Origin: a virus
Taxonomy: Duplodnaviria; Heunggongvirae; Uroviricota; Caudoviricetes
Length of the DNA: 64,000 nucleotides
IMG/VR virus record: IMGVR_UViG_3300042401_001499
Direction: 5' to 3' (one strand)
In this document: positions 13,190-32,501 of the stretch, in pieces
Layout: each line of letters starts with the position of its first letter
Numbering within the stretch: position 1 is the first letter of the stretch
Translations under genes and position numbers: made by a program
The notes under the pieces: generated by a model
Seen by the model: the letters and a program-made list of their open reading frames with translations, nothing else
Database searches by the model: none
What the model was told of the DNA's origin: nothing

Positions 13190-13191
13190 TT

Positions 13192-14478
13192 ATGAGTAAA
13201 CCTACATTAGTAGTAAGCTGTCCAGTAGACACTTACTCAGGATATGGAGCAAGAGCAAGAGACTTTGTACAATCAATTATCGATACAGATAAGTACGAAG
13301 TAAAGATCCTATCACAAAGATGGGGAGGTACTAGATTTGGATATCTTAAAGATCATAAGAATGAATCTTTAGCCTCTAGAATTATACCACAACTAACACA
13401 ACAGCCAGACATCTGGATTCAAATTACAGTACCGAATGAATTTCAAAAGGTTGGTAAATACAATATTGGACTAACAGCAGGAATTGAAACTACAATCTGT
13501 GATCCTTCCTGGATTGAAGGATGTAACAGAATGGACTTAGTATTAGTATCAGCACAACATGCTAAGAAAGTATTTGAAGATAGTAAATTCAATATGCAAG
13601 ATTCAAATACAGGACAAGTAACAGGACAGTTAGCACTTAGTACAAAGGTAGAAGTTCTATTTGAAGGAGCTGATATAGAGAAGTATGCACCATTGTCATG
13701 GCCAGTCACATTAGATCTTTCAACTATACCGGAAATGTTCTGCTTCCTAACAGTAGGTCACTGGCTTCAGGGGTCTCTTGGAGAGGATAGAAAGAATATT
13801 GGATACACTATTAAAGCATTCTTAGAAACATTTAAGAATAAAAAAGATCAACCGGCACTTATTTTAAAAGTACAAGCAGGAGCAGGAACCTCTATCATGG
13901 ATAGGGAAGCAGTGTTGGATAAAATTGATGCAATCAGAAAGACAGTAAAGGGAAAGTTACCAAACATTTACGTACTACATGGAGAAATGTCTGATGCTGA
14001 AGTAAATGAACTATACAACCACGGTAAGGTAAAGGCGATGATCTCTTTAACAAAAGGAGAAGGATTTGGAAGACCTCTACTAGAATTTAGTTTAATAAAC
14101 AAACCAATCATAGCTTCAGGATGGTCAGGGCATATTGACTTCCTTGATAATCGATATACAAAACAAATAGGAGGAACTCTTACAAACGTACATCCATCAG
14201 CAGCTGTAGACAAAATGATCTTACAAGAAAGCCAGTGGTTTACACCAGACGATGCTCTTGTAGGAAAAGCTCTTAAGGATGTATTTGAGGATTATAAACC
14301 ATATAAGGAATTAGCCAAAAGACAGGGGTATAAGAGTAGAACTGAGTTCTCGTATGATAAGATGAGAGAGACGCTAGATACTCTTCTAACACAGTACATT
14401 CCTGAATTCCCTAAGCAAGTACAGTTAAAGTTACCTCAACTTAAGAAAATAGAACTACCAAAATTAACTAAAATATAA
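13192..14478 (+). CDS. Glycosyltransferase, GT-B fold (GT4-like)
   Basis: TKGEGFGRPLLEFSLINKPIIAS matches the GT4 signature. Confidence 0.6.
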   Translation: MSKPTLVVSCPVDTYSGYGARARDFVQSIIDTDKYEVKILSQRWGGTRFGYLKDHKNESLASRIIPQLTQQPDIWIQITVPNEFQKVGKYNIGLTAGIETTICDPSWIEGCNRMDLVLVSAQHAKKVFEDSKFNMQDSNTGQVTGQLALSTKVEVLFEGADIEKYAPLSWPVTLDLSTIPEMFCFLTVGHWLQGSLGEDRKNIGYTIKAFLETFKNKKDQPALILKVQAGAGTSIMDREAVLDKIDAIRKTVKGKLPNIYVLHGEMSDAEVNELYNHGKVKAMISLTKGEGFGRPLLEFSLINKPIIASGWSGHIDFLDNRYTKQIGGTLTNVHPSAAVDKMILQESQWFTPDDALVGKALKDVFEDYKPYKELAKRQGYKSRTEFSYDKMRETLDTLLTQYIPEFPKQVQLKLPQLKKIELPKLTKI

Positions 14479-14936
14479 TGGAAGAAAAAATGTCAATCTG
14501 TCCACATTGTGGAGGAAATGCTTGCTATGAACAAGCAGTAACAGAAGAAGTAACAACAAGCTTTTGCTTTGGATGCGGGTATTCAACTTCAACTCTAATG
14601 GTTGAAGGAGGAGATTTAGTAAACAAAACACTAGAAGCATCACCAGAACTTTATAAAGATCTTATGTTTGTAAGTGAAGATAAGAAAGTATGGTTCCCTT
14701 CTACAGTTACTCTTCCAAATAAAGGAATGGTATTCTTAGACGGAACAGCAAAAGAGAATTGGAGATGGGCAGCAGTAACCTCAGTAGAGATTCTAGAAGA
14801 AGAGAAAGCTAAATTTCCAAAAGGTCAGACAACTAAAATGGATATGAAAAATATCAAACATTTTGAGAAAGAAGATTTTATGGAAGCATTAGATGCTATC
14901 AAATTCTTTGATGTAGAAGTTGCTGAATCAGAATAA
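14478..14936 (+). CDS. Zinc-ribbon protein
   Basis: Motifs CPHCGG ... CFGCGY. Start is ATGA-coupled. Confidence 0.4.
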   Translation: MEEKMSICPHCGGNACYEQAVTEEVTTSFCFGCGYSTSTLMVEGGDLVNKTLEASPELYKDLMFVSEDKKVWFPSTVTLPNKGMVFLDGTAKENWRWAAVTSVEILEEEKAKFPKGQTTKMDMKNIKHFEKEDFMEALDAIKFFDVEVAESE

Positions 14937-14954
14937 ATTTCTTATCTTAATAGG

Positions 14955-15572
14955 ATGAAAATAAGTTATGCAATAACAGTTTGTAATGAGTTGGAGGAGA
15001 TTAAACGCTTAGTGACTTTCCTCCTTCTTACTAAACGTAAAGAAGACGAAGTAGTTATTTTATTTGATGAGAAGAACGGAACAGATGAAGTATTTGATTA
15101 CATAGAGTCTCAAGTTTATCACTGTGAAGTATTCTGTGAAAAGTTTGAAGGACACTTTGCTGATTGGAAAAATGAACTTACATCACACTGTACAGGAAAG
15201 TACATCTTTCAAATAGATGCAGACGAACTTCCAACTGAAGACCTTATTGTAAACCTTCCGTACATCTTAGAAGTTAATCAAGATGTAGATGTATTTCTTG
15301 TACCAAGAATTAATACAGTAGAAGGACTAACACTTCAACATATTCAGAAATGGGGATGGAATGTAAATGATAAAGGTTGGGTAAACTTCCCAGACTACCA
15401 ATGGAGAATTTATAGAAATGATCCTAGTATAAAATGGAAGAACAGAGTACACGAAGTACTAGAAGGATTTAAAACATCCACACTACTTCCAGCAGAGGAG
15501 ATGTATTGCCTATATCATCCAAAGACAATCGACAGACAAGAGAAACAGAATAATTATTACGATACATTATAA
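14955..15572 (+). CDS. Glycosyltransferase family 2-like (GT-A)
   Basis: N-terminal YAITVCNE typical of GT2, with DxD-like acidic motifs. Confidence 0.4.
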   Translation: MKISYAITVCNELEEIKRLVTFLLLTKRKEDEVVILFDEKNGTDEVFDYIESQVYHCEVFCEKFEGHFADWKNELTSHCTGKYIFQIDADELPTEDLIVNLPYILEVNQDVDVFLVPRINTVEGLTLQHIQKWGWNVNDKGWVNFPDYQWRIYRNDPSIKWKNRVHEVLEGFKTSTLLPAEEMYCLYHPKTIDRQEKQNNYYDTL

Positions 15573-15579
15573 ATTAGTT

Positions 15580-16890
15580 ATGGATAGTATTTTAAATTTA
15601 GTACAAGAGTACATTACAAAGAAGGATAGCGAGAAGAAATGGGTAGCAGGAGAAGACTTAGTTCAATATGCTGGACCTTACTTCGATGGTCAAGAAGCTC
15701 AAGCGGTTGTTAGGACTATGCTTGAAGGATGGTTAGTTCTAGGAAAAGAAGGAGCAATGTTTGAAAGACGTTTCCCTAAAAAATTAGGGCAGAAGACTGG
15801 AGTCATTGTTAATAGCGGTTCAAGTGCTAATTTACTAATGATGTTAGCCTTAACATCTAAGAGAGGAATGAACTTACCAAAAGGTACAAAAGTAATTACT
15901 CCAATAGCAGGATTCCCTGCAACACTTAGTCCTACTATTCAAGTAGGCTTTACACCAATCTTTGTTGATATTGAATTAGAATCTCTTAATCTAGACTTAG
16001 ATCAAGTAGAGCAAGCATGCATTGATCATCCGGATGCAAAGATAATTACATTTGCTCACGTATTAGGTAATCCACCTAACATGGATCGATTAATGGAAAT
16101 TGTAAACAAATATAATTTAATTCTATTAGAAGACTGTTGTGATGCTTTAGGAACGACATACGATGGTAAGATGTTAGGATCATTTGGTAAAATGTCTTCA
16201 TGCTCATTCTATCCAGCACATCACATTACAATGGGTGAAGGAGGATTTGTAGCTTGTGGAGATGCTCATACAGAAAAGATACTAAGAAGTTTTAGAGACT
16301 GGGGTAGAGGGTGTTTCTGTCAAGGTAAAGCAAATGCTTTAGAATGTGGTTCATGTGGTATTAGATTTAGTAATTGGTTACCAAGTCTTCCTAATGAGAT
16401 CTTTGATCACAAATATACTTATGAAGAGATTGGATACAATTTAAAACCTACAGAGTTACAAGCAGCAATGGGTAATGTTCAGTTAGGTAAGTTAGAAGAG
16501 ATTGGAGTACTGAGAAGAAGAAATCATAAAGCAATTGTTGACATCTTTAAGAAGTATGAAGATAAATTTATCCTTCCTAAAGCTACAGATAAATCAGATC
16601 CAGATTGGTTTGCAGTAGCATTAACATTAAGAGACGGAGTAGGATTTACAAGATCTGAATTCTGTCAATACTTAGAAGCAAATAAGATTCAAACAAGACC
16701 TTACTTTGCAGGTAACATTATGTTACAGCCAGGCTATTCACATTTAATTGATTCAAAAGAAGTTATTGAGAAATATCCAGTATCAAGAAAAGTAACAACA
16801 GATACTTTCTTCTTAGGATGCTCACCAATCATTACATTGGAACAAATAGAATACATTGGAACAATTGTAGATAAATTCTTCAGTAAATAG
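15580..16890 (+). CDS. ddhC: E1-type PMP-dependent, Fe-S NDP-4-keto-6-deoxyhexose 3-dehydrase (DdhC/AscC/RfbH family)
   Basis: DegT/AHBA-synthase fold. The Schiff-base Lys is replaced by His (SFYPAHHITMGEGG), the E1/ColD hallmark. The Cys spacing C-x57-C-x1-C-x8-C (CC ... CFCQGKANALEC) matches the E1 [2Fe-2S] site. Confidence 0.8.
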   Translation: MDSILNLVQEYITKKDSEKKWVAGEDLVQYAGPYFDGQEAQAVVRTMLEGWLVLGKEGAMFERRFPKKLGQKTGVIVNSGSSANLLMMLALTSKRGMNLPKGTKVITPIAGFPATLSPTIQVGFTPIFVDIELESLNLDLDQVEQACIDHPDAKIITFAHVLGNPPNMDRLMEIVNKYNLILLEDCCDALGTTYDGKMLGSFGKMSSCSFYPAHHITMGEGGFVACGDAHTEKILRSFRDWGRGCFCQGKANALECGSCGIRFSNWLPSLPNEIFDHKYTYEEIGYNLKPTELQAAMGNVQLGKLEEIGVLRRRNHKAIVDIFKKYEDKFILPKATDKSDPDWFAVALTLRDGVGFTRSEFCQYLEANKIQTRPYFAGNIMLQPGYSHLIDSKEVIEKYPVSRKVTTDTFFLGCSPIITLEQIEYIGTIVDKFFSK

Positions 16891-16891
16891 T

Positions 16892-17737
16892 ATGAAAAAA
16901 TTTGTAATAAGTACACATGGGTTTGATATGGGAATAGGAGGCTTAAAGGTTTTACATAAACTTTGTCACCTTCTAAATGAAAATGGATACGACGCATATC
17001 TAATACCAGTAAATTTTAATGAACCATTCGGCATGTATGAGGGGTATAATACCAAAATGATTACACAAGACATACTAGATAATCTGGAAGAGGCCATAGT
17101 AGTGTACCCTGAAAGCTGGAACGGTAACTACCTCAATGCACCAAACGTAGTTAGGTGGATGATAGGACCTCCTACCAAGGATGTTGCTGCTACATGGTCT
17201 AGCAAGGACCTATGGTTTTGGTATATTCCTTTTTATAAGTCTTCTGAGTTTACTAAGCATTTAGAAAATCAACTGTATATAGGAGAGCAGCATAGGGATA
17301 TCTTTTTTAATAGAAACTTAGAAAGGACTATTACTAGTTGGACTTTAAGAAAAGCTCAAGGGTTAGTACAAGAAGTAAATTACAAACACCCTAAGGATAG
17401 TTTGTTTCTTCCGTATCATGCAGCAGGAGATTTAGCCTCTCTTTCTGATATATTTAATAGATCTAAAGCATTCTACTGCTACGATACATATACCTACTTA
17501 ACAATACAGAGCCTACTATGCGGTACAGAGGCCATAGTGCTTCCAAATAGTTGGACCGAGAAAGAACATTTTCTAAAAGGATTTGCACTAAGCAAGTATG
17601 TAGCCTATGGAATAGACGATCTACCCAGAGCCAGAAGTATCCGTAATGAATTTTTAGAAGAAGTAGAAGAGATTGAAACATTAACAATAAAACAGTTACA
17701 TGAATTTACAGAAAAATGCTCTACCTACTTTAGCTGA
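16892..17737 (+). CDS. Hypothetical protein in the sugar island
   Basis: 281-aa ORF with no clear motif. Confidence 0.35.
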   Translation: MKKFVISTHGFDMGIGGLKVLHKLCHLLNENGYDAYLIPVNFNEPFGMYEGYNTKMITQDILDNLEEAIVVYPESWNGNYLNAPNVVRWMIGPPTKDVAATWSSKDLWFWYIPFYKSSEFTKHLENQLYIGEQHRDIFFNRNLERTITSWTLRKAQGLVQEVNYKHPKDSLFLPYHAAGDLASLSDIFNRSKAFYCYDTYTYLTIQSLLCGTEAIVLPNSWTEKEHFLKGFALSKYVAYGIDDLPRARSIRNEFLEEVEEIETLTIKQLHEFTEKCSTYFS

Positions 17738-18728
17738 GTTTAGCTTCTTGATCGTAACTGCAGCAAGAGATGAGAATAGACTAAGAGAAGCCTACAGGTC
17801 AATAAGGCTACAATACCCGGAAAATGAAATAGTAGTAGTATATGATAACACTGGTGTTTTATTACTAAATAGAGAAGATATAAACCTACTGGAGATTCCA
17901 ACTTCGGAAAGAGTGTATGTTAGTAGGGGATATAATATAGCATTAAAAAACTGCTCTAAGCCATATTTTGTATTTCTACATGATGATACTTTTATTGCTC
18001 CTAACTTTCTAGAAAACATATTACCCCATATAAGCGAAAGTCAGTTTTGTAACTTCACTGCAATAGAGCCTCCAGTATTTGGCAACATCGATTCAGCAAC
18101 AGCACCAATTAGGGATTTTGGTAGAAGCTTAGATACGTTTGTAGTAGAGAACTTTAATAAATATACAGAAAAGTATGTACAGACCTTAGAACACAGAACA
18201 GTAGAATCTCCTTTTGGAGGATTTTTTATGGTGGGAAGTACTAAGAGTATATTAAGTATAGGAGGATTTGATGAAACCTTTCAACCCTATTTCTTTGAAG
18301 ACAGTGACTTAATGGTACGGCTACACCTAGCAAACTTTAGGTTTATACAGGTACTAGATAGTTTAGTATATCATATGGTAAGCCTAACCTCTAGAGGAAC
18401 TCCGGAGAGTAGGGTAGCTGAGAGTATCACTCATAAGTTGTTTGTTAAGAAATGGAAGGTAGAATTCAATTACTTCAGACAGTATACAATGTCAGCAGGT
18501 ATTCCATATAAGAAGATACCAGTCTTAATTAAACACACAAACTGTAGTGAATCATTACAAGAGTACCTATCCTTAATAAGTGAACCTAGTACAGTAGAGC
18601 TAATAGTAGACGGACTGCAAATATCTCAAGAAGATGTAGGATATATACAATCATTACCGTATATTATACAGGATACAATACTATCAGGTAGCTACCAACT
18701 GGGAAGTATGCAACTAAATTTTAACTAA
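17700..18728 (+). CDS. Glycosyltransferase family 2-like
   Basis: VVVYDN ... LHDDTFIAP (DxD) GT-A pattern. Confidence 0.4.
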   Translation: MNLQKNALPTLAEFSFLIVTAARDENRLREAYRSIRLQYPENEIVVVYDNTGVLLLNREDINLLEIPTSERVYVSRGYNIALKNCSKPYFVFLHDDTFIAPNFLENILPHISESQFCNFTAIEPPVFGNIDSATAPIRDFGRSLDTFVVENFNKYTEKYVQTLEHRTVESPFGGFFMVGSTKSILSIGGFDETFQPYFFEDSDLMVRLHLANFRFIQVLDSLVYHMVSLTSRGTPESRVAESITHKLFVKKWKVEFNYFRQYTMSAGIPYKKIPVLIKHTNCSESLQEYLSLISEPSTVELIVDGLQISQEDVGYIQSLPYIIQDTILSGSYQLGSMQLNFN

Positions 18729-18755
18729 ATAACATAAAAAGATAATTTTATAAAG

Positions 18756-19712
18756 ATGAAAAAAGTAGTTTACGTTACCGGTTGTTTAGGATTTATTGGA
18801 TCCTACGTAACAAGGAAGTGTTTAGATAGAGGATGGTACGTTAAGGGAGTTGATAAGAAGACCTATGCAGCTAATAAAGACTTATTAAAAGAGTTTAAAG
18901 AGTATGAAAACTTTTCATTTGTAGATTGTGATATAAATGATTTGAAGTTCCTATATGACTGTGACTATATAATTAATACAGCAGCTGAGACTCATGTAGG
19001 AAACTCTATAATGGATTCGGATGTATTTGTACATTCAAATGTAAATGGAGTTCACAATCTACTAGAGTTAATAAAAAATCATAGAGGAGAGAATGCTACT
19101 AAGCCTACACTCCTTCACTTTAGTACAGACGAAGTTTATGGAGATATCGAAGAAGGAGAGCATATCGAGACTGACATACTTAAACCATCTAATCCATACT
19201 CAGCTACTAAAGCTGCAGCAGATATGCTAATAACAGCTTGGGCAAGAACTTACAAACTTCCTTATATTATAATAAGGCCAACAAACAATTACGGAATAGG
19301 GCAGTATGTAGAGAAGTTAATACCTAAAGCCTGTAAGTACTTACGACTTGGTAAAAAGATTCCTCTACACAATAACGGTACTCCAATTAGAAACTGGCTC
19401 CATGCCCAGGATACAGCTGAGGCTGTAATTAGAATTATTGAATCAGGAGTGCAGAATGAAATCTATAATATTTGTGGAGGATTTGAGCAAACTAATTTGG
19501 ATACTATTAAAAAAGTTCTTATATTGTACTATAAGGATTTAGGAGTAGACATAGAAGCTAACTTAGACCTAAAATGTAATAGACAAGGACAAGATGTTAG
19601 GTATGCCTTAAATGATGATAAATTAAGAGCATTAGGATGGAAACCTACAATTGACTTTGACTTGGAATTAAAAAATGTTGTAGAATATTATAGAGAAAAA
19701 TTCATATGGTAA
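18756..19712 (+). CDS. rfbB: NDP-hexose 4,6-dehydratase (RfbB-like extended SDR)
   Basis: Rossmann motif VTGCLGFIGS. FSTDEVYG and catalytic PYSATKAAADM (YxxxK), followed by NNYGIGQYVEKLIP, closely match dTDP/CDP-glucose 4,6-dehydratases. Confidence 0.75.
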   Translation: MKKVVYVTGCLGFIGSYVTRKCLDRGWYVKGVDKKTYAANKDLLKEFKEYENFSFVDCDINDLKFLYDCDYIINTAAETHVGNSIMDSDVFVHSNVNGVHNLLELIKNHRGENATKPTLLHFSTDEVYGDIEEGEHIETDILKPSNPYSATKAAADMLITAWARTYKLPYIIIRPTNNYGIGQYVEKLIPKACKYLRLGKKIPLHNNGTPIRNWLHAQDTAEAVIRIIESGVQNEIYNICGGFEQTNLDTIKKVLILYYKDLGVDIEANLDLKCNRQGQDVRYALNDDKLRALGWKPTIDFDLELKNVVEYYREKFIW

Positions 19713-21460
19713 AAGTAAGTGATGTAATCGTTCAATACCTTAAAGCTAATAAGATAGAGATTGTATTTGGAATAATTGGCTCAGCTAATTCTCACATATT
19801 CAATTCGATATTAGAAGAAGGAAGTATCAAATTGGTATCGGTACATCATGAACAAGCCGCTGTAATGGCTATGGGAGCTTATTACCGTTCAACCGGAAAG
19901 ATGGCTGTTGCATTAGTAACAGCAGGAGGAGGAGCATCAAATGCTTCAACAGGAATTCTTTCCAACTGGGCTGACTCCATTCCAGGAATAACTATCTCAG
20001 GACAAGAACAATCCTACTACTTAGCTGAATATAAAGATATGAGAATGTTTGGAGTACAAGGTTATGATGCAACTAAAGCATATGAAAACTGTACTAAAAT
20101 GTCTTATGTACTTACAGAAAATACCTTACATTCAATAATGCCTTTTGCATTTGCTTTAACACAAGAAGGTAGACCAGGGCCAGTATTCCTGGAAGTACCT
20201 TTCGATGTTCAAAGTAAAATGATAGAAGAAGTAGAAATAAAAGTAACTCCAATTGTAGAAATATACCCTGAGACTTCTTCTGATACAGACTATATCCTCT
20301 CTGCACTTTCACAAGCAGAGCGACCAGTTATACTAGGAGGTCACGGCGTTAAGCTAGCTAAAGCAGAAGAATTATTTAAACAATTTGTAGGAGACTATAA
20401 CATACCAACAGTATTAAGCTGGTCAGCAGTAGACTTACTTGATGATAATGATCCTAACTATTTCGGAAGACCAGGAGTACAGGGTCAGAGAGCAGCTAAC
20501 TTTATAGTACAGAACTCTGATTTACTAATTGTATTAGGAAGCAGACTATCATTACTTCAGACAGGCTACAAAAGAGAAGACTTTGCTCCATATGCTAATA
20601 TCATTCATGTTGATGTAGATGATACAGAAATTAATAAGTTCAACGGAAAGAATATAAAAGCAGATGTAGGAGAATTACTTACAAGTTTAAATTCTAAATG
20701 GAAAGCTGAGATTGAAATAGAGGAATGGATACAATACTGTAATCAAATTAAAGAAAAGTATCCTTTAGTAATGCCTGAGCATTTAGCAGACCCTACCAAT
20801 TCATATACATTTATTGATAAATTCTCACAAAAAGTATCGGACAATTATACAATCGTTACTGATATGGGAACAGCTTTATTAAGTGGATTCTATGGATGGA
20901 GAATTAAACCTAACCAAAAGATGTTTACCTCTCTAGGATTAGGAGAGATGGGATATGGATTAGCAGCAGCAGTTGGAGCTGGATTTGGAGAAAGACCAGT
21001 GATGTGTTTAAATTGTGATGGAGGTATGATGATGAACATACAAGAGTTACAAACAATTAAGACACATAACCTTCCAGTAAAGATTATCATATTCAACAAT
21101 GACGGATACTTAATGATCAAACATACTCAGAATATGTTATTTAAAGGAGCACGTACTTGTGTTGACAAAGAGACAGGAGTAACACTTCCTGATTATAAAA
21201 AAGTAGCACATGCATTTGATTTTGAATACTTCACAGAAGATAACGTAGATGACTTCTTAGCATTTGAAGGCCAGGCTATCATGGAAGTATTTATGGATCC
21301 AAATCAAGAATTTATTCCTAAGGTAAGAGGAATGAAGCTAGAAGATAGTACAATCCAAGCAGGACTATTAGAGGAGATGTCTCCACTTCTTCCGTTAGAA
21401 GAAATAGAACAAGCAATGGTTGCAGGAATTAACCAAAGAAGTAAAACAGTTGTAAGATGA
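19706..21460 (+). CDS. ThDP-dependent enzyme of the acetolactate-synthase family (YerE-like sugar C-branching enzyme candidate)
   Basis: 584 aa. ThDP motif GDG-x~26-NN (CDGGMMMN ... IIFNNDGY). Located inside a deoxysugar cluster. Confidence 0.7.
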   Translation: MVKVSDVIVQYLKANKIEIVFGIIGSANSHIFNSILEEGSIKLVSVHHEQAAVMAMGAYYRSTGKMAVALVTAGGGASNASTGILSNWADSIPGITISGQEQSYYLAEYKDMRMFGVQGYDATKAYENCTKMSYVLTENTLHSIMPFAFALTQEGRPGPVFLEVPFDVQSKMIEEVEIKVTPIVEIYPETSSDTDYILSALSQAERPVILGGHGVKLAKAEELFKQFVGDYNIPTVLSWSAVDLLDDNDPNYFGRPGVQGQRAANFIVQNSDLLIVLGSRLSLLQTGYKREDFAPYANIIHVDVDDTEINKFNGKNIKADVGELLTSLNSKWKAEIEIEEWIQYCNQIKEKYPLVMPEHLADPTNSYTFIDKFSQKVSDNYTIVTDMGTALLSGFYGWRIKPNQKMFTSLGLGEMGYGLAAAVGAGFGERPVMCLNCDGGMMMNIQELQTIKTHNLPVKIIIFNNDGYLMIKHTQNMLFKGARTCVDKETGVTLPDYKKVAHAFDFEYFTEDNVDDFLAFEGQAIMEVFMDPNQEFIPKVRGMKLEDSTIQAGLLEEMSPLLPLEEIEQAMVAGINQRSKTVVR

Positions 21461-22314
21461 AAATAAAAGTAGCAATTATTGGTACAGGTAATATCGGAAC
21501 AGATTTATTACTCAAAGCCTTAAAGACAGACTTCATGGATGTAGTAGCATTCGTAGGTCGTAGATTAGATTCAGATGGAATGCTAACAGCTAAGAAATAC
21601 AATGTACTGATATCAGATCAAGGTATTCAATACTTTATTGACAATCCAAAGTGTTGTGATGTAGTTTACGATTGTACCTCAGCAGCAGATGCTATTGAAC
21701 ATGCTAAGATATTTAAAGACCAGGAAATAAAAGTAATTGACCTAACACCAGCCAAGGTAGGAGATATGTGCGTACCAGATGTTAACTCTGAGATTATATT
21801 GACAGATGATAATGTAAATATGATTACTTGCGGAGGACAAGCTTCAATGCCTATGCTTCATTTACTATCAAAAGAGTGCATAGGATTAGAATACATCGAA
21901 GTAGTATCACAGATTGCATCTAAGAGTGCAGGAATGGCTACAAGAATAAACGTAGACAATTACATTCAAACAACTCAGAAAGCTATAACAAAGTTTACTG
22001 GTTGTTCAAATAACAAAGTAATACTAAACCTTAACCCTGCTGAACCCTGTGTTGATATGCAGACAACTATCTTTATCAAAGCAAAGAAAGTTAATTTTGA
22101 AAATCTAACAGAGAAGGTCTTAGAAAAAATTGAAGAGTTAAGAACATACATTCCATATTACGAAATGGTGCTTCCTCCAACTATGAACGATAATGGTGTA
22201 GTTGTAATGAGTATTAAAGTAAGAGGTACAGGAGACTATCTTCCAGCCTATGCTGGTAACCTGGATATTATTAACTGTGCAGCAATTAAAGTAACAGAAA
22301 GATTGGTAAAATGA
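21457..22314 (+). CDS. Acetaldehyde dehydrogenase (acetylating), DmpF/MhpF family
   Basis: N-terminus MKIKVAIIGTGNIGTDLLLK closely matches DmpF/MhpF. ~290 aa. Confidence 0.75.
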   Translation: MKIKVAIIGTGNIGTDLLLKALKTDFMDVVAFVGRRLDSDGMLTAKKYNVLISDQGIQYFIDNPKCCDVVYDCTSAADAIEHAKIFKDQEIKVIDLTPAKVGDMCVPDVNSEIILTDDNVNMITCGGQASMPMLHLLSKECIGLEYIEVVSQIASKSAGMATRINVDNYIQTTQKAITKFTGCSNNKVILNLNPAEPCVDMQTTIFIKAKKVNFENLTEKVLEKIEELRTYIPYYEMVLPPTMNDNGVVVMSIKVRGTGDYLPAYAGNLDIINCAAIKVTERLVK

Positions 22315-23309
22315 GAAAAGTAATCATAACAGATTCAAGTCTTAGAGATGGAAATCATAGTGTTAAGCATACTATAAGTTTAGATAGTATAGCAAGGTAT
22401 TGTCAATTTGCTGATAGAGCTGGCGTACCAATTGTAGAGGTAGGTCACGGAAATGGATTAGCAGCATCCTCTTTACTTGTAGGTAAGTCTGTTAATACAG
22501 ATGAAGAGATGCTAACAACTGCTAGAAAGAATCTAAAGAATTCTAAACTAGGAATTCATATGATACCAGGACTAGCAACACTAGAACATACTAGGAGAGC
22601 AATTGATCTAGGAGTAGATGTAGTGAGAGTGGCAACACATTGTACAGAAGCAACACTATCTAAATCTCATATTGAAGCACTAGCAAAAGCAAATGTAGAA
22701 GTGTTCGGAGTATTGATGATGAGTGCTTTAATTACTCCTCTAGAATTATTAGAGCAAGCTAAAATAATGGAAGGGTATGGAGCTAAGGCTATTATTATAA
22801 TGGACTCTACAGGAACATATCTACCATTTGATGTACAGCAGAGAATTGCCCTACTGACAAGCAATCTAAATATTGCAGTAGGATTTCATGCTCATAACAA
22901 CTTAGGATGTGCAGTAGCCAATTCCCTAACAGCAGTAGAATTTGGAGCAGACTATATTGACGGATGTATTAGAGGATTTGGAGCCGGAGCAGGAAATGCA
23001 CCACTAGAAATACTTATACCAGTATTAGAGCAAACAGGCTTTCAAGTAGGAATAAACTTCCAGGAGACGATCAAAGAAGCTGATAATGTAATGAACTACT
23101 TAGTTCCATCAGCTCCTATCACAACTCCAATTAACATACTAACCGGACTTAAGAAACTATTCTCAGGATTTGAAAAGCCTATCGTAAGTGCTTCTAAGTT
23201 GTATGGAATAGAATATTCATCTCTTATCTTTGAATTAGGTAATAGAAAGTTGGTAGCCGGGCAAGAAGATCTTATCTTAGAGGTAGCACAGAAGCTAAAG
23301 AAGAGATAG
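22311..23309 (+). CDS. 4-hydroxy-2-oxovalerate aldolase-like (DmpG/MhpE DRE-TIM family)
   Basis: SLRDGNHSVKH and VEVGHGNGL motifs of the HOA aldolase family. Overlaps and pairs with the DmpF homolog. Confidence 0.75.
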   Translation: MRKVIITDSSLRDGNHSVKHTISLDSIARYCQFADRAGVPIVEVGHGNGLAASSLLVGKSVNTDEEMLTTARKNLKNSKLGIHMIPGLATLEHTRRAIDLGVDVVRVATHCTEATLSKSHIEALAKANVEVFGVLMMSALITPLELLEQAKIMEGYGAKAIIIMDSTGTYLPFDVQQRIALLTSNLNIAVGFHAHNNLGCAVANSLTAVEFGADYIDGCIRGFGAGAGNAPLEILIPVLEQTGFQVGINFQETIKEADNVMNYLVPSAPITTPINILTGLKKLFSGFEKPIVSASKLYGIEYSSLIFELGNRKLVAGQEDLILEVAQKLKKR

Positions 23310-24221
23310 ATGAACATATTAATTACAGGAGGGAATGGATTCTTAGGATCTAATATTGTTAGAAAGCTGTTAAAGGAAGGACATAGTGTCTACTTATTTT
23401 CAAACAATACAAATAACATAGAGGACATACTTCCTCAAGTTTTATTTGACTACAGTAGTACTAATTCACTACCTATGTTTAAGAAGAAAATAGAGACATT
23501 TTCACCAGACATAGTAATACATTGTGGATGGAGTGGAGGAAATAGTTACGCAGATACTAATAGTATGGATCAGTTTTATGAAAATGTAGATCCAAGTATC
23601 TCTCTACTACAACTACTAAGTAAGCTCAAGAAGAAGCCTAAGTTTGTAGGTTTTGGAAGTTTTGCAGAGTATGGAGAGATGTTCAATCCAGTAAGTGAAA
23701 CAGTCCAAGAAGTTCCTACAAACCTATATGGACTATCAAAGTATACTTTTAAGAAGTATAGTGAAATGATATGCAACCAACACAGTATAGAATGGGTATG
23801 GATAAGGCCCTGCTACGTTTACGGACCAGGAGATGTAAGCACAAGACTTCTTCCTAGTATAATTAAGAAGTTCTTAAGGAATGAAGCAGTAATACTTGAT
23901 GAGTGTACTTCTACTGTAGATTATATTTATATAGATGATTTTGTTAATTCAATTTATTTTCTTATATTAACAAAACATACAGGAGTGTACAACATATGCT
24001 CAGGAAAACAATACAAGATAAGAGATATAGTTGAGCAAGTTCATAAACAAATTGAGAGTAGTAGTACTATTGAATTTAGTGCTAATCTAAAAAGAACCTC
24101 TACATACTCTTATGTATGTGGGGACAGACGAAAGATTGATGCTGTTGCAAATATTCCAACTCAGATATCTTTAAATGAAGGATTAGTTAAAACAATAACA
24201 TATTATAAAGTAAGAAAATGA
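23310..24221 (+). CDS. NAD(P)-dependent SDR epimerase/reductase (sugar ketoreductase candidate)
   Basis: ILITGGNGFLGSNIV Rossmann motif and a YxxxK-type core (YGLSK). Confidence 0.6.
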   Translation: MNILITGGNGFLGSNIVRKLLKEGHSVYLFSNNTNNIEDILPQVLFDYSSTNSLPMFKKKIETFSPDIVIHCGWSGGNSYADTNSMDQFYENVDPSISLLQLLSKLKKKPKFVGFGSFAEYGEMFNPVSETVQEVPTNLYGLSKYTFKKYSEMICNQHSIEWVWIRPCYVYGPGDVSTRLLPSIIKKFLRNEAVILDECTSTVDYIYIDDFVNSIYFLILTKHTGVYNICSGKQYKIRDIVEQVHKQIESSSTIEFSANLKRTSTYSYVCGDRRKIDAVANIPTQISLNEGLVKTITYYKVRK

Positions 24222-24859
24222 AAAACGAAGTTGTAGTAAAAGAAGGAGGCTGGATTTGGCCTAAGAAGGATGAGAGAAGTTGGCAAGGTCAAATAAAACA
24301 AAAGGAACTAGCTCAATACATACTTCCCTATGTAGTGAAGAATGATGTAATGATACAAGCAGGTGGTAATTGTGGATTCATTCTAAGTACCTTTGTTCCC
24401 TACTTTAACAACATCTATACATTTGAACCAGATCCAATAAACTTTTATTGCTTGAATCAGAATGTTACAGCACCAAGTGTTATTAAGATGCAATGTTGCT
24501 TAGGAAAAGAAAGTACACCAGTAGCTGTACAACATCTACAAAGAGGTATAGGAGAGGGAATAGACATAGGGGGAGTACATGTTAGTGGAGTAGGGTTTAC
24601 TCCTACTATTGTTATCGACAAATTAAACCTACAGGCATGTGACTTAATTCAACTAGACATAGAAGGGTATGAACTCAATGCACTACTGGGTGCAGTAGAG
24701 ACTATTAAGAAATATAAACCTGTACTATGTATAGAGTTCTGTGAAAACTGGTTAAATAGGTATGAAGCTACGTCAGATAGTGTTGAAACTCTTTTAGTTG
24801 AATTAGGATACAAACATGTAGAATCGTACCAAGCAGATAGAATTTACATAACACAATAG
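24218..24859 (+). CDS. FkbM-family methyltransferase
   Basis: IQAGGNCGF ... YTFEPDPINFYCLNQN matches the FkbM domain signature. Confidence 0.55.
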   Translation: MKNEVVVKEGGWIWPKKDERSWQGQIKQKELAQYILPYVVKNDVMIQAGGNCGFILSTFVPYFNNIYTFEPDPINFYCLNQNVTAPSVIKMQCCLGKESTPVAVQHLQRGIGEGIDIGGVHVSGVGFTPTIVIDKLNLQACDLIQLDIEGYELNALLGAVETIKKYKPVLCIEFCENWLNRYEATSDSVETLLVELGYKHVESYQADRIYITQ

Positions 24860-24877
24860 GTTACATATATACATACA

Positions 24878-26155
24878 ATGGAAAATTCAATTAGTTTTTG
24901 CATCAATACAGCAGTAGATGAACTACCTTATTTAAAACTACTAATGAAGTCGTTAAAAGAAAATCTTAAGTACGACCACCACGAGGTAATTGTGTTTGTT
25001 GATTCTGATAATCAAAAAACCTTCGAATGGCTGACTACTCAAAAGTTAGAGTTTAAGAATCTAAAAATACTTAAAAACATACTCCCAGTATGTTATGGCC
25101 CTATTAGGAATATAAATGAAATGTTTAAATTTGCTTCTCATGAAATAGTTTCTTACCTACAGTCTGATATGGTTGTTTCTAGAAACTATGATGAGTATCT
25201 CTTAAAGCATATTAAACCTAATACGATACTATCTAGCACTAGAATTGAACCACCACTACATGGACCAGGTCCTGAGAAGCATACTGTGAACTTTGGACTA
25301 ACTCCCTCTGAGTTTGATTATGAGGGGTTTTTAAACTACTGTGACATATGTAGAGAAGATAAAACAACAAGTTACTATTTTGCACCATTTACTTTATATA
25401 GAGAGATTTGGAACACTATAGGAGGGCAAGACAACACCTTTAGACGGTCAAGAGATGACTCTGATATTTTAAATAGGTTTATACTTTCAGGAGTAGAGAT
25501 TGTTCAAACATGGGAAGCACTGGTATACCATTTTACTTGTACTTCTAGTAGAGGACCGGGCTGGCATGAGCCAAGTAATACAAAGGCACAGGAAAAGTTA
25601 CAACTCCAAGCAAGAGCAGATAAGGTAGAACTTACTAGAATATTTAGAAAGTGGGGAGAATTTAGCCATGGACATCCAACACCGTACTACTATAATATAG
25701 TCTCAGAAATTAATATAGATATAGATATAGGTAACTTAGAGTTATTTAAAAACGTTGAGATGTTTTTTATAAAAAACTACATAACTTCTAAAAAACTATA
25801 TAACGAGTTTATAAATGAGAATGAACATCTATATGCTAATATACTTTACAAGTACTCTCAAGAACAGTGGGAGGAGTACAAGTACATGTGCAACATAGAG
25901 AGATTAGAGGATAGAGTTTGTATAGGAGAACCAGAAGGAGATGTGGTAGTTTCATTTAACCTTAGTAGTATTAACCAAAATACATTTAATAATGTACTAA
26001 GTAAGTTACAACACATAATACACGAAGCAGAACCAGGTGATTATGAATTCGAAGGATTTACTTTCTCAATAAAGAACAAAGAGAATATTATAGAGACTAA
26101 ACTTAAAGTAAACAATCCTGATATAAAACCAGAACATCTATATAAGGTATACTAG
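24878..26155 (+). CDS. Glycosyltransferase family 2-like, with C-terminal extension
   Basis: VIVFVDSDN acidic motif within a GT-A-like N-terminal half. Confidence 0.4.
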   Translation: MENSISFCINTAVDELPYLKLLMKSLKENLKYDHHEVIVFVDSDNQKTFEWLTTQKLEFKNLKILKNILPVCYGPIRNINEMFKFASHEIVSYLQSDMVVSRNYDEYLLKHIKPNTILSSTRIEPPLHGPGPEKHTVNFGLTPSEFDYEGFLNYCDICREDKTTSYYFAPFTLYREIWNTIGGQDNTFRRSRDDSDILNRFILSGVEIVQTWEALVYHFTCTSSRGPGWHEPSNTKAQEKLQLQARADKVELTRIFRKWGEFSHGHPTPYYYNIVSEINIDIDIGNLELFKNVEMFFIKNYITSKKLYNEFINENEHLYANILYKYSQEQWEEYKYMCNIERLEDRVCIGEPEGDVVVSFNLSSINQNTFNNVLSKLQHIIHEAEPGDYEFEGFTFSIKNKENIIETKLKVNNPDIKPEHLYKVY

Positions 26156-32488: not shown

Positions 32489-32501
32489 TATCTTTAAGTA
32501 T
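32489..32501 (+). promoter_or_regulatory. Variant promoter -7 box (TATCTTTAAGTAT)
   Basis: Same variant as at 31519. Directly follows a terminator and precedes a small ORF. Confidence 0.35.

What the first reader, a model, noticed from the sequence alone, without database searches (positions are those of the whole stretch)
19706..23309. ThDP branching enzyme followed by a DmpF/DmpG-like acetaldehyde-dehydrogenase plus aldolase pair inside a sugar cluster
DmpG/DmpF (MhpE/MhpF) normally end aromatic meta-cleavage pathways, which is irrelevant to a phage. Here the pair is translationally coupled (ATGA overlaps) directly downstream of the YerE-like ThDP enzyme. One possibility is that it supplies or channels the two-carbon donor (acetyl-CoA to acetaldehyde, plus pyruvate handling) for C-branching of the keto-sugar. 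Another is that it performs an aldol addition on the sugar itself. Either would be a non-canonical use of this enzyme pair.
Basis: inference. Interest (0 to 1): 0.7.

Follow-up and report, generated by a model that had tools for sequence, protein, structure and literature searches.

The report
Phage-borne branched-sugar (erwiniose-type) donor module
A Flavobacterium-type phage carries a known bacterial gene module in which an aldolase and dehydrogenase pair, normally read as aromatic-degradation enzymes, most likely builds a five-carbon keto acid that a thiamine enzyme attaches to a deoxysugar as a four-carbon branch. The chemistry is known from bacteria, and its presence in a phage appears to be new.

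Summary
Three genes are joined by ATGA overlaps: a YerE-like ThDP carboligase (19706-21460), a DmpF-type acylating acetaldehyde dehydrogenase (21457-22314) and a DmpG-type pyruvate aldolase (22311-23309). They sit inside a glycan cassette of an Immutovirus-like Flavobacterium phage.

The use of this enzyme pair is not new. Steitz et al. 2022 (PMC9306805) described the same module (ErwE/F/J/I) for erwiniose in Pectobacterium atrosepticum. There, acetyl-CoA gives acetaldehyde, acetaldehyde plus pyruvate gives (4R)-4-hydroxy-2-oxopentanoate, and a ThDP-dependent decarboxylative addition joins this to NDP-4-keto-3,6-dideoxyhexose. The result is a C4 branch.

- **Co-occurrence:** the triad is found together in 60 of 61 bacterial and 52 of 52 viral loci that have enough flanking sequence.
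- **Catalytic residues:** all are retained.
- **Stereocontrol positions:** the two BphI residues that control stereochemistry (Leu87, Tyr290) are His and Phe in 151 of 152 such aldolases. This mirrors the engineered 4R-specific BphI variant L87N/Y290F.
- **ThDP enzyme:** it belongs to the JanthE (CDG-motif) class, and JanthE's own locus has the same layout.

What is new is the viral carrier, a dTDP-type dehydratase at the pathway entry, and a swappable cassette. I rate it a new member of a known kind, of moderate interest.

The parts
19706..21460 (+). YerE-like ThDP carboligase of the JanthE (CDG-motif) class. Inferred role: it decarboxylates 4-hydroxy-2-oxopentanoate and adds the acyl anion to C-4 of the NDP-4-keto-3,6-dideoxyhexose.
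   Evidence: Pfam TPP_enzyme_N, M and C domains. The best solved homologue is JanthE, 8rph, at 503.6 bits, against 254.6 bits for PpYerE (5ahk). The enzyme is 43% identical to JanthE and about 31% identical to PpYerE. It carries the 'CLNCDGGMMMN' motif and the catalytic 'HHEQAA' Glu.
21457..22314 (+). DmpF/BphJ/ErwJ-type CoA-acylating acetaldehyde dehydrogenase. Inferred to run in the reductive direction (acetyl-CoA + NAD(P)H to acetaldehyde).
   Evidence: TIGR03215 at 321.6 bits, above the 282 cut-off, with AcetDehyd-dimer and Semialdhyde_dh domains. PDB matches are 7z3s, 4jn6_B and 1nvm_B, and the catalytic Cys in 'NMITCGGQA' is kept. dN/dS is 0.037 against the 96%-identical relative L088.
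22311..23309 (+). DmpG/BphI/ErwI-type class II pyruvate aldolase with communication domain. Inferred to condense pyruvate with acetaldehyde to give (4R)-4-hydroxy-2-oxopentanoate.
   Evidence: TIGR03217 at 342 bits, above the 286 cut-off, with HMGL-like and DmpG_comm domains. Arg12, Asp13, His16, His193 and His195 correspond to DmpG Arg17, Asp18, His21, His200 and His202 and are kept. DmpG Leu88 (BphI Leu87) is His83, and DmpG Tyr291 (BphI Tyr290) is Phe284. dN/dS is 0.050.
18756..19712 (+). RmlB-type NDP-glucose 4,6-dehydratase. It is the first gene of the core conserved across viral relatives (dehydratase, ThDP, DmpF, DmpG).
   Evidence: TIGR01181 at 299 bits against 70.6 bits for the CDP-glucose type. 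All top PDB hits are dTDP-glucose 4,6-dehydratases. It sits directly upstream of the ThDP gene in most viral loci.
15580..16890 (+). E1/RfbH-type PMP- and Fe-S-dependent 3-dehydrase. It makes the 4-keto-3,6-dideoxyhexose acceptor.
   Evidence: NF011936 (RfbH) at 452 bits, above the 423 cut-off. The best PDB hit is Yersinia E1, 3bcx, at 345.6 bits. The 'YPAHHITMGEGG' stretch, which by my recollection holds the active-site His of E1, and a Cys-rich stretch are kept.
23310..24221 (+). SDR-fold NAD(P)-dependent enzyme. It is the candidate ketoreductase for the branch carbonyl (the ErwF/YerF step).
   Evidence: Pfam Epimerase domain, 129 bits. It sits immediately after the aldolase gene here and in many viral loci. 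It is not the SDR lineage found in the bacterial loci, so the role is inferred from position only.
24218..24859 (+). FkbM-family methyltransferase, probably O-methylating the sugar.
   Evidence: PF05050 and TIGR01444. The same family follows the module in the JanthE locus L031 and in L008.
11747..15572 (+). Conserved left arm of the glycan cassette: two GT1-type glycosyltransferases, a 152-aa unknown ORF and a GT2.
   Evidence: The same four genes are annotated in Flavobacterium phage immuto_2-6A (immuto26A_90 to _93).
16892..18728 (+). A 281-aa ORF with no family match (16892-17737), followed by a GT2 glycosyltransferase (17700-18728).
   Evidence: The pair recurs together in viral relatives such as L113 and L125 at 54-65% identity.
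24878..26155 (+). GT2 glycosyltransferase closing the cassette.
   Evidence: PF00535. It is conserved after the FkbM gene in viral relatives.

Best explanation
The three genes are the core of a phage-borne version of the erwiniose-type pathway for acyl-branched sugars.

Proposed steps:
1. The DmpF-like enzyme reduces acetyl-CoA to acetaldehyde.
2. Acetaldehyde passes to the DmpG-like aldolase, which is bound to DmpF through its communication domain. The aldolase condenses it with pyruvate to give 4-hydroxy-2-oxopentanoate, probably the 4R enantiomer.
3. The JanthE/ErwE-like ThDP enzyme decarboxylates this C5 keto acid and adds the resulting 3-hydroxybutanoyl anion equivalent to the C-4 carbonyl of an NDP-4-keto-3,6-dideoxyhexose.
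4. That acceptor is made by the adjacent RmlB-type 4,6-dehydratase and the E1-type 3-dehydrase.
5. The SDR then reduces the branch ketone, the FkbM enzyme methylates, and the five glycosyltransferases install the sugar in a glycan.

The product would be an erwiniose-like sugar: 3,6-dideoxy-4-C-(1,3-dihydroxybutyl)hexose, which is the same as 3,6,8-trideoxy-4-C-(1-hydroxyethyl)octose.

What is shown: gene identities, conserved catalytic residues, conserved linkage and purifying selection.

What is inferred: direction of flux, donor identity, stereochemistry, the SDR's role, the nucleotide carrier and the glycan's target.
For: (1) Published precedent. In P. atrosepticum, erwE (ThDP), erwF (reductase), erwJ (acetaldehyde dehydrogenase) and erwI (aldolase) are adjacent. 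ErwE couples 4-hydroxy-2-oxopentanoate to a ketone surrogate in vitro and rejects pyruvate (PMC9306805; review PMC12247030).

(2) Linkage.
- Among the 80 closest bacterial loci, from many phyla, DmpF lies directly upstream of the aldolase in 78.
- Of the 61 bacterial loci with at least 5 kb of flank on both sides, 60 have a ThDP enzyme within 5 kb and 57 have an RfbH-like 3-dehydrase.
- Among 66 IMG/VR viral loci, all 52 with enough flank have the ThDP enzyme.
- Rearranged viral loci (L145-L150) still keep all three genes.

(3) Glycan context. Annotated bacterial examples are clearly glycan loci.
- L059, Chromobacterium haemolyticum: E3 reductase, DdhA, DdhB, RfbH, ThDP, SDR, DmpF, DmpG, SDR, GT2.
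- L031, Rugamonas: nucleotidyltransferase, dehydratase, RfbH, ThDP, DmpF, DmpG, two SDRs, FkbM, GT2.
- L008, Flavobacteriaceae.

(4) ThDP enzyme. Its closest solved relative is JanthE, with which it shares the CDG motif. JanthE accepts 4-hydroxy-2-oxovalerate. The ThDP ORF of L031 is 99% identical to JanthE and lies in the same RfbH-ThDP-DmpF-DmpG arrangement.

(5) Aldolase active site. The metal and catalytic residues are intact. The two BphI stereocontrol positions are His and Phe in 151 of 152 sugar-locus aldolases, against Leu and Tyr in all four solved catabolic enzymes. In BphI, Y290F loses 4S control, and L87N/Y290F is 4R-specific (PMC3962088). ErwE uses the 4R acid.

(6) Selection. dN/dS is 0.04-0.05 for DmpF and DmpG and 0.12 for the ThDP gene, against an unsaturated relative.

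(7) Context in the window. No meta-cleavage genes are nearby; every neighbour is a sugar gene.
Against: - No enzyme from this phage or its relatives has been assayed.
- ErwI and ErwJ themselves were not assayed in the 2022 paper, which used HpaI as a surrogate.
- JanthE, the closest characterised ThDP homologue at only 43% identity, is promiscuous and also accepts pyruvate. Homology alone therefore does not fix the donor.
- I could not retrieve the Erw protein sequences for a direct comparison.
- The phage SDR is not the lineage that follows the aldolase in bacterial loci.
- The window has no nucleotidyltransferase and no E3 reductase.
- The 4,6-dehydratase is dTDP-glucose-type, whereas the closest E1 homologue acts on a CDP-sugar. 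The acceptor is therefore not fully defined.
- The His/Phe pair is also found in more distant family representatives whose context is unknown.
Confidence: 0.75

Rival explanations
1. The ThDP enzyme makes an ordinary yersiniose-type C2 (acetyl) branch. The DmpF/DmpG pair only supplies or balances the two-carbon donor: acetaldehyde from acetyl-CoA taken directly as ThDP donor, or pyruvate handling.
For: JanthE, the closest characterised homologue, accepts pyruvate. YerE uses pyruvate. It is established knowledge that ThDP carboligases can in general take aldehydes as donors.
Against: Pyruvate is abundant in any host, so there is no need for a strictly conserved, strongly selected aldolase. If only acetaldehyde were needed, the aldolase would be superfluous, yet it is never lost. 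ErwE rejects both pyruvate and acetaldehyde. The retained communication domain and pyruvate-binding Arg and metal site argue that the aldolase reaction itself is wanted.
Confidence: 0.1
2. The logic is the same but the aldehyde or product differs. The pair uses a different acyl-CoA (for example propionyl-CoA giving 4-hydroxy-2-oxohexanoate), or the keto acid is elaborated further, giving a branch longer than C4. Alternatively, the SDR is an epimerase and the branch stays a ketone.
For: ErwE converts 4-hydroxy-2-oxohexanoate even better than the pentanoate, at 76% against 49%. BphI/BphJ-type pairs take propionaldehyde. Sixteen of 80 bacterial loci add an HpcH/HpaI aldolase next to the ThDP gene, which shows that the scheme is elaborated in nature. 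The phage SDR lineage differs from the bacterial one.
Against: The residue at the BphI Leu89 position, which limits aldehyde length, is Ile in all of these aldolases. That is similar in size to Leu. The window has no HpaI-type aldolase. Acetyl-CoA is the standard DmpF substrate.
Confidence: 0.1
3. The pair is a catabolic auxiliary metabolic gene. It cleaves 4-hydroxy-2-oxovalerate to pyruvate and acetyl-CoA, as in meta-cleavage pathways, and is unrelated to the neighbouring sugar genes.
For: Both proteins score above the curated equivalog cut-offs for the catabolic enzymes. Virome surveys list K01666 as a metabolic AMG.
Against: The window has no hydratase, dioxygenase or other meta-cleavage genes. 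Linkage to a ThDP enzyme and sugar genes is near-universal in 146 loci. The genes are joined by start/stop overlaps. The active-site pair differs from all solved catabolic enzymes.
Confidence: 0.03
4. The aldolase adds pyruvate to the keto-sugar itself, and the ThDP enzyme and dehydrogenase then process the resulting side chain.
For: None specific. It is chemically conceivable.
Against: ErwE-type enzymes have been shown to perform the C-C coupling to ketones. BphI/DmpG aldolases take small aldehydes, and pocket residues limit chain length. By established knowledge of 1NVM, the aldehyde is delivered through a narrow channel. An NDP-sugar would not fit that architecture, which is retained here in the DmpG_comm domain.
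Confidence: 0.02

Closest known systems
ErwE/ErwF/ErwJ/ErwI erwiniose cluster of Pectobacterium atrosepticum SCRI1043 (Steitz et al. 2022, PMC9306805)
   Same: It has the same four enzyme types side by side: a YerE-like ThDP enzyme, an NAD(P)H reductase, a BphJ-like acetaldehyde dehydrogenase and a BphI-like aldolase. They sit next to genes for a 4-keto-3,6-dideoxyhexose, and the proposed chemistry is the same.
   Different: - Here the carrier is a phage.
- The gene order is E-J-I-F rather than E-F-J-I.
- The ThDP enzyme has the CDG motif, not GDG.
- The 4,6-dehydratase is dTDP-glucose-type.
- No nucleotidyltransferase or E3 reductase is present.
- The SDR is from another lineage.
- A direct sequence comparison with the Erw proteins could not be made.
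JanthE (PDB 8rph), a YerE-like ThDP enzyme of Janthinobacterium sp. HH01
   Same: It is the best solved homologue (503.6 bits). It shares the unusual CDG ThDP-binding motif, and the residues I mapped to its hot spots Y297 and K567 are conserved. An enzyme 99% identical to it in Rugamonas (L031) sits in the arrangement RfbH-ThDP-DmpF-DmpG-SDR-SDR-FkbM-GT2.
   Different: Identity is only 43%. JanthE is promiscuous in its donor, and its physiological substrate is stated to be unidentified.
YerE/YerF (yersiniose A, Yersinia pseudotuberculosis) and PpYerE (PDB 5ahk)
   Same: It belongs to the same ThDP subclass that adds an acyl anion to an NDP-4-keto-3,6-dideoxyhexose, followed by ketoreduction.
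   Different: YerE uses pyruvate (C2 branch) and needs no aldolase/dehydrogenase pair. It has the GDG motif. PpYerE is about 31% identical and scores 254.6 bits.
DmpG-DmpF (PDB 1nvm), BphI-BphJ and HsaF-HsaG catabolic aldolase-dehydrogenase complexes
   Same: The fold, the domain set including the communication domain, the metal ligands, Arg17, His21 and the catalytic Cys of the dehydrogenase are the same. Both proteins score above the equivalog cut-offs.
   Different: - The context is glycan synthesis, not meta-cleavage.
- The inferred direction is synthetic.
- BphI Leu87 and Tyr290 are replaced by His and Phe.
- The phage enzymes are about 36-46% identical to catabolic-type family members.
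Engineered BphI L87N/Y290F and L87W/Y290F (4R-specific variants; reviewed in PMC3962088)
   Same: The same two positions are changed in the same sense: the Tyr hydroxyl is removed, and Leu87 is replaced by a polar or bulkier residue.
   Different: Here the residue is His rather than Asn or Trp, the change is natural, and the stereochemical outcome is untested.
Caryophyllose and gastriose clusters (MMAR_2331/2332; MygI/MyGE)
   Same: They follow the same 'aldolase makes a hydroxy-keto acid, ThDP enzyme attaches it' scheme.
   Different: They use HpcH/HpaI-family aldolases and longer aldehydes, with no DmpF/DmpG pair.

Membership tests
Erwiniose-type acyl-branched-sugar module (ErwE/F/J/I scheme) | A YerE-like ThDP carboligase encoded next to the aldolase/dehydrogenase pair | tested here: met
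   The genes overlap. The best PDB hit is JanthE, followed by PpYerE.
Erwiniose-type acyl-branched-sugar module (ErwE/F/J/I scheme) | A BphJ-like acylating acetaldehyde dehydrogenase and a BphI-like pyruvate aldolase as an adjacent pair | tested here: met
   TIGR03215 and TIGR03217 score above their cut-offs, and the catalytic residues are kept.
Erwiniose-type acyl-branched-sugar module (ErwE/F/J/I scheme) | Genes for the NDP-4-keto-3,6-dideoxyhexose acceptor in the same locus | tested here: inconclusive
   An E1-type 3-dehydrase and a 4,6-dehydratase are present. The dehydratase is dTDP-type, and no nucleotidyltransferase or E3 reductase is found in the window.
Erwiniose-type acyl-branched-sugar module (ErwE/F/J/I scheme) | An NAD(P)H ketoreductase for the branch (ErwF/YerF step) | tested here: inconclusive
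   An SDR gene follows the aldolase directly. It is not the SDR lineage of the bacterial loci, and its activity is unknown.
Erwiniose-type acyl-branched-sugar module (ErwE/F/J/I scheme) | The ThDP enzyme uses 4-hydroxy-2-oxopentanoate rather than pyruvate as donor | not testable with these tools
   This needs enzymology. The homologue JanthE accepts both donors, whereas ErwE accepts only the hydroxy acids.
Erwiniose-type acyl-branched-sugar module (ErwE/F/J/I scheme) | Sequence orthology to ErwE, ErwJ and ErwI (WP_011093010, _012, _013) | not tested
   The sequences could not be obtained. No supplement is held. Pectobacterium was not among the 80 genome loci returned or among the 120 homologues of a bacterial member.
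DmpG/BphI class II pyruvate aldolase (TIGR03217; DRE-TIM metallolyase) | HMGL-like barrel plus DmpG communication domain, scoring above the equivalog cut-off | tested here: met
   PF00682 at 145.9 bits, PF07836 at 57.8 bits, and TIGR03217 at 342 bits against a cut-off of 286.
DmpG/BphI class II pyruvate aldolase (TIGR03217; DRE-TIM metallolyase) | Metal ligands Asp18, His200 and His202, pyruvate-binding Arg17 and catalytic His21 (DmpG numbering) | tested here: met
   All are present in the window protein and in all 152 sugar-locus homologues.
DmpG/BphI class II pyruvate aldolase (TIGR03217; DRE-TIM metallolyase) | Leu88 and Tyr291 (BphI Leu87 and Tyr290), which enforce 4S specificity | tested here: not met
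   His83 and Phe284 occupy these positions, as in 151 of 152 sugar-locus aldolases. All four solved catabolic enzymes have Leu/Tyr.
DmpG/BphI class II pyruvate aldolase (TIGR03217; DRE-TIM metallolyase) | Meta-cleavage operon context (hydratase, hydrolase, dioxygenase neighbours) | tested here: not met
   All neighbours are sugar or glycosyltransferase genes.
DmpF/BphJ acylating acetaldehyde dehydrogenase (TIGR03215) | Score above the equivalog cut-off, with NAD-binding and dimerisation domains and the catalytic Cys | tested here: met
   321.6 bits against a cut-off of 282, PF09290 at 138.5 bits, and 'ITCGGQA' aligned to 7z3s and 4jn6_B.
YerE proper (pyruvate-dependent C2 branching, yersiniose) | Closest relationship to characterised YerE enzymes, with the canonical GDG motif | tested here: not met
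   PpYerE scores 254.6 bits against 503.6 bits for JanthE, and the motif is CDG.
Biosynthetic acetolactate synthase | Score above the curated equivalog cut-offs | tested here: not met
   The best match is 334.5 bits against a cut-off of 738. All acetolactate synthase models score below their cut-offs.

The most novel reading that the evidence does not exclude
Immutovirus-like Flavobacterium phages carry a hypervariable, swappable glycan-synthesis cassette. This variant lets the phage make, from the universal metabolites acetyl-CoA and pyruvate plus host dTDP-glucose, an erwiniose-like C4-branched, O-methylated dideoxysugar. The phage would install it on its own virion proteins or on the host surface, for masking, superinfection exclusion or receptor mimicry of Flavobacteriaceae glycans. 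The His/Phe aldolases would be a natural 4R-selective branch of the DmpG family.
Probability: 0.3. Interest if true: 0.6.

Novelty: new member of a known kind. Interest (0 to 1): 0.42.

Why it matters
- **Annotation.** DmpF/DmpG homologues in viromes are automatically labelled as aromatic or amino-acid catabolism genes (example). Here they are best read as the donor-supply arm of a rare-sugar pathway.
- **Reach of the scheme.** The 2022 'unifying scheme' for acyl-branched sugars extends to viruses. At least 67 IMG/VR contigs carry the module, on contigs of up to 326 kb.
- **JanthE.** The analysis places this biocatalytically used enzyme in a native genomic context, next to a DmpF/DmpG pair.
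- **Aldolase stereochemistry.** It identifies a natural two-residue signature (His/Phe) that may mark 4R-selective pyruvate aldolases. This is useful for biocatalysis and for predicting branch stereochemistry from sequence.
- **Phage biology.** The slot holds a different sugar set in the isolated phage immuto_2-6A. This points to diversifying glycan cassettes in aquatic phages whose target is still unknown.

Tried and rejected
- **Nucleotide search.** Megablast of the cassette against 50,697 phage records found nothing. The phage was identified only through a protein search with its polymerase.
- **Aldolase in isolated phages.** tblastn of the aldolase against the phage collection found no isolated phage carrying it. 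The hits were a Salmonella contig with the catabolic enzyme and LeuA-like genes.
- **First literature query.** 'Aldolase + dehydrogenase + O-antigen' returned only aromatic-degradation genome papers.
- **Erw sequences.** Attempts to get ErwE/I/J failed. No supplement is held. Lanza 2024 and Krug 2024 are not held. A second homology search seeded with the Chromobacterium aldolase returned only relatives of 79% identity or more, with no Pectobacterium.
- **Promoter and terminator scan.** It was uninformative: fewer promoter-like sites than in shuffles, and Bacteroidota promoters are not covered.
- **tRNAs.** None in the window.
- **Ideas considered and rejected.**
  - Acetolactate synthase: all cut-offs missed.
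  - Catabolic AMG: wrong context and a different active-site pair.
  - Aldol addition on the sugar: see rival explanations.
- **Structure prediction.** Not run. Alignment to 1nvm at the key positions has no nearby indels, and model coordinates could not have been measured with these tools.

Full report
**1. What is there**

The window is part of a large myovirus-type phage. It encodes a family A DNA polymerase, GroEL and a baseplate wedge protein. The polymerase is 93.8% identical at the protein level to that of Flavobacterium phage vB_FspM_immuto_2-6A (genus Immutovirus, 160 kb, Baltic Sea), and gene order around it is the same. The exact aldolase protein of the window occurs on 20 metagenomic contigs, the longest 158 kb.

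From 11747 to 26155, every ORF on the + strand belongs to a glycan cassette:
- two GT1-type glycosyltransferases, a 152-aa unknown ORF and a GT2;
- an E1/RfbH-type 3-dehydrase (NF011936, 452 bits, cut-off 423; best PDB hit Yersinia E1 3bcx);
- a 281-aa unknown ORF and a GT2;
- an RmlB-type 4,6-dehydratase;
- the ThDP enzyme, the DmpF-like enzyme and the DmpG-like enzyme;
- an SDR, an FkbM methyltransferase and a GT2.

They are joined by ATGA overlaps, and the dehydratase overlaps the ThDP gene by 7 nt.

**2. The proteins**

- **DmpF-like protein.** It passes the curated equivalog cut-off for acylating acetaldehyde dehydrogenase (321.6 against 282 bits) and keeps the catalytic Cys.
- **DmpG-like protein.** It passes the cut-off for 4-hydroxy-2-oxovalerate aldolase (342 against 286 bits). 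It has the HMGL-like barrel and the DmpG communication domain. It keeps Arg17, Asp18, His21, His200 and His202 in DmpG numbering, which I checked by counting along the 1nvm alignment.
- **ThDP enzyme.** It misses every acetolactate synthase cut-off. Its best solved relative by a wide margin is 8rph (503.6 bits). Next come PpYerE 5ahk (254.6 bits) and the true acetohydroxyacid synthases. [quoted passage not shown] The phage enzyme has the same 'CLNCDGGMMMN' stretch and the cofactor-activating Glu.

**3. Already-known chemistry**

A literature search on rare branched sugars led to Steitz et al. 2022 (PMC9306805). Starting from yerE and yerF, they found in Pectobacterium atrosepticum SCRI1043 four adjacent genes:
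- a ThDP enzyme (ErwE);
- a reductase (ErwF);
- an acetaldehyde dehydrogenase (ErwJ, 41% identical to BphJ);
- a pyruvate aldolase (ErwI, 43% identical to BphI).

They proposed the following pathway. ErwJ supplies acetaldehyde from acetyl-CoA. ErwI condenses it with pyruvate to give (R)-4-hydroxy-2-oxopentanoate. ErwE couples this decarboxylatively to CDP-4-keto-3,6-dideoxyglucose. ErwF reduces the product to erwiniose, which carries a C4 branch.

ErwE performed the coupling in vitro with a surrogate ketone, selected the 4R acid, and did not accept pyruvate. ErwI and ErwJ were not assayed. The donor is a C5 keto acid, not a two-carbon unit.

**4. Does the triad co-occur elsewhere?**

*Bacterial genomes.* A scan of one genome per bacterial species, using an alignment of phage aldolases, found 266 relatives. 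The best 80 (50-75% identity) come from Oxalobacteraceae, Chromobacterium, Flavobacterium, Pedobacter, Mucilaginibacter, Bdellovibrionota, Planctomycetota and other groups. I mapped the window's proteins onto these loci.
- DmpF lies directly upstream of the aldolase in 78 of 80.
- Of the 61 loci with at least 5 kb of flank on both sides, 60 have a ThDP enzyme within 5 kb and 57 have an RfbH-like dehydrase.

*Annotated bacterial examples* are clear glycan loci.
- Chromobacterium haemolyticum: ManC, E3 reductase, DdhA, DdhB, RfbH, HpaI-type aldolase, ThDP (GDG), SDR, DmpF, DmpG, SDR, GT2. The order E-F-J-I matches the consecutive erw accession numbers.
- Rugamonas rivuli: GT41/TPR protein, nucleotidyltransferase, dehydratase, RfbH, ThDP, DmpF, DmpG, two SDRs, FkbM, GT2.
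- A Flavobacteriaceae MAG.

*Viral contigs.* The same scan of IMG/VR found 67 viral contigs, 45-94% identical and up to 326 kb long. All 52 with enough flank keep the ThDP enzyme. Sixty-one of 66 keep DmpF directly upstream, and the rearranged ones still keep all three genes.

*Conservation of the core.* In relatives of the window, the core of dehydratase, ThDP, DmpF and DmpG is constant while the flanking glycosyltransferases change.

*Selection.* Purifying selection is strong, and strongest on DmpF and DmpG. dN/dS is 0.037 and 0.050, against 0.115 for the ThDP gene, in comparison with an unsaturated relative.

**5. Two further points from the comparison**

*(a) JanthE's native context.* The JanthE sequence read from the PDB alignment is 99% identical to the ThDP ORF of the Rugamonas locus and 96-98% identical to those of two other Oxalobacteraceae loci. 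In each case the ORF sits directly between RfbH and DmpF-DmpG. A 2025 paper states that JanthE's physiological substrates are unidentified, although it accepts 4-hydroxy-2-oxovalerate. This context suggests that acid as the native donor.

Two ThDP lineages accompany the pair in these loci:
- the CDG class (47 JanthE-like loci plus 8 phage-like loci);
- a GDG class (about 22 loci).

*(b) The stereocontrol positions of the aldolase.* The positions equivalent to BphI Leu87 and Tyr290 are His and Phe in the window protein and in 151 of 152 sugar-locus aldolases. All four solved catabolic enzymes have Leu and Tyr.

In BphI, which is strictly 4S-specific, Y290F abolishes stereocontrol. L87N/Y290F and L87W/Y290F are 4R-specific (PMC3962088). 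ErwE consumes the 4R acid. It is therefore a reasonable inference that these aldolases are natural 4R-selective enzymes.

Two caveats apply. The 80 bacterial loci were selected with motifs elsewhere in the protein, so these two positions were not selected for. However, in a family-wide sample of the 150 best 50%-identity representatives, His/Phe also occurs in about 15 more distant representatives of unknown context. In the same sample Leu/Tyr occurs in 17, and a Phe/His combination occurs in 66, mostly 620-710-aa proteins.

**6. How the phage version differs from the bacterial module**

- The 4,6-dehydratase is dTDP-glucose-type. It is only 21-28% identical to most of the dehydratases in the bacterial loci, which are of the DdhB lineage in 66 of 80 loci.
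- The window has no nucleotidyltransferase and no E3 reductase, whereas 65 of 80 bacterial loci have a DdhA-like gene.
- The phage therefore probably draws on host dTDP-glucose and a host reductase system. This is inference.
- The SDR after the aldolase is from a different lineage than the bacterial one.

*Origin.* In a neighbour-joining tree, the viral aldolases form one clade containing three MAG contigs assigned to Bacteroidota or Ignavibacteria. One of these (L008) is clearly bacterial by context. This is consistent with acquisition from the host lineage.

*A swappable slot.* In the isolated phage immuto_2-6A, the same slot keeps the four left-arm genes. It then encodes a different sugar set: WecE-type aminotransferases, a methyltransferase, a mannosyltransferase, an acetyltransferase-like 'pilin glycosylation protein' and an epimerase. 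No isolated phage in the collection has the aldolase, so the cassette is exchangeable.

**7. Mechanism and confidence**

Best explanation (0.75): the triad is the donor-supply and branching core of an erwiniose-type pathway.

One further argument is inferential. 4-Hydroxy-2-oxopentanoate is not a general metabolite, so a phage that wants this sugar must bring its own supply route from acetyl-CoA and pyruvate. This would explain why DmpF and DmpG are the most conserved genes in the module. The irreversible decarboxylation by the ThDP enzyme would pull the reversible aldolase and dehydrogenase reactions in the synthetic direction.

Rival explanations:
- C2 branching with the pair as an accessory (0.10);
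- the same logic with a different aldehyde or product (0.10);
- a catabolic AMG (0.03);
- aldol addition on the sugar itself (0.02).

**8. Verdict**

The finding is a new, viral member of a known kind of module, with modest variations: a dTDP-type entry enzyme, a CDG-class ThDP enzyme and a different SDR.

Interest is moderate. The surprising element is not the enzyme pair's role, which was published in 2022. It is that aquatic phages carry and diversify a complete rare-sugar branch pathway whose glycan target is unknown. I found no paper in the searchable library linking YerE-like enzymes to phages, but that library is incomplete.

Noticed in passing
window 11747-26155 compared with L087 (MW353175.1 49172-59988): The glycan cassette is a swappable slot. 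The isolated phage immuto_2-6A shares the four left-arm genes (GT, GT, hypothetical, GT2). It then encodes a different sugar set (WecE-type aminotransferases, methyltransferase, mannosyltransferase, 'pilin glycosylation protein', epimerase, GT) in place of the RfbH/ThDP/DmpF/DmpG set.
   Followed up: partly
L031 5907-11020 (Rugamonas rivuli FT103W); also L029 and L045: The crystallised biocatalyst JanthE (8rph) is 96-99% identical to the ThDP ORFs of these loci. Each ORF lies between an RfbH-like dehydrase and a DmpF/DmpG pair. A 955-aa GT41/TPR/GT2 protein lies upstream in L031. The JanthE literature I could read calls its physiological substrate unidentified.
   Followed up: partly
L059 5495-6328, and 15 other bacterial loci: Sixteen of the 80 bacterial loci also encode an HpcH/HpaI-family aldolase next to the ThDP gene, in addition to the DmpF/DmpG pair. 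Two different pyruvate aldolases in one branched-sugar locus suggests a longer or doubly elaborated branch.
   Followed up: no
window 18756-19712, and the whole window: The phage uses a dTDP-glucose-type (RmlB-like) 4,6-dehydratase, where 66 of the 80 bacterial loci have a DdhB-like dehydratase (the CDP-glucose pathway type). The window has no nucleotidyltransferase or E3 reductase homologue. The nucleotide carrier of the phage sugar may therefore differ from that in the bacterial pathway.
   Followed up: partly
L004-L006 7366-10996 compared with window 19706-23309: There is mosaicism inside the module. In these relatives DmpF and DmpG are 81-84% identical to the window's proteins, but the ThDP enzyme is only 49% identical and the SDR 46%. 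This suggests recombination between module parts.
   Followed up: no
P0167-P0270 (family representatives, not in the window): Among the 150 best 50%-identity representatives of the aldolase family, 66 have Phe/His at the two stereocontrol positions. Most of these are 620-710 aa long, so they are presumably fusion proteins. I did not look at what the extra half is.
   Followed up: no
window 16892-17737 and 14478-14936: Two ORFs inside the cassette (281 aa and 152 aa) match no Pfam, NCBIfam or PHROG family. The 281-aa ORF travels with the following GT2 in several viral relatives at 44-65% identity.
   Followed up: no
window 377-2359: This stretch holds a formyltransferase-like ORF, an AAA/thymidylate-kinase-like ORF and an ORF matching a PHROG labelled GTP cyclohydrolase. 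The last is annotated as QueF (7-cyano-7-deazaguanine reductase) in immuto_2-6A. They may be nucleotide or DNA-modification genes.
   Followed up: no
window 5097-7045: The phage encodes a GroES/GroEL pair. The GroEL match to PHROG 5725 has E = 1e-163, and both genes are annotated in the immuto relative.
   Followed up: no
window about 32500-46000: This stretch has few ORFs of 100 aa or more, strongly positive GC skew (up to 0.29) and lower G+C (0.29-0.30 around 36-40 kb). No tRNAs were found. In immuto_2-6A the corresponding region is filled with very small hypothetical genes.
   Followed up: no
literature (PMC13303688): A 2026 virome survey lists viral 4-hydroxy-2-oxovalerate aldolase (K01666) as an 'amino acid metabolism' auxiliary gene. 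Genes of the kind analysed here would be labelled that way by KEGG-based pipelines.
   Followed up: no
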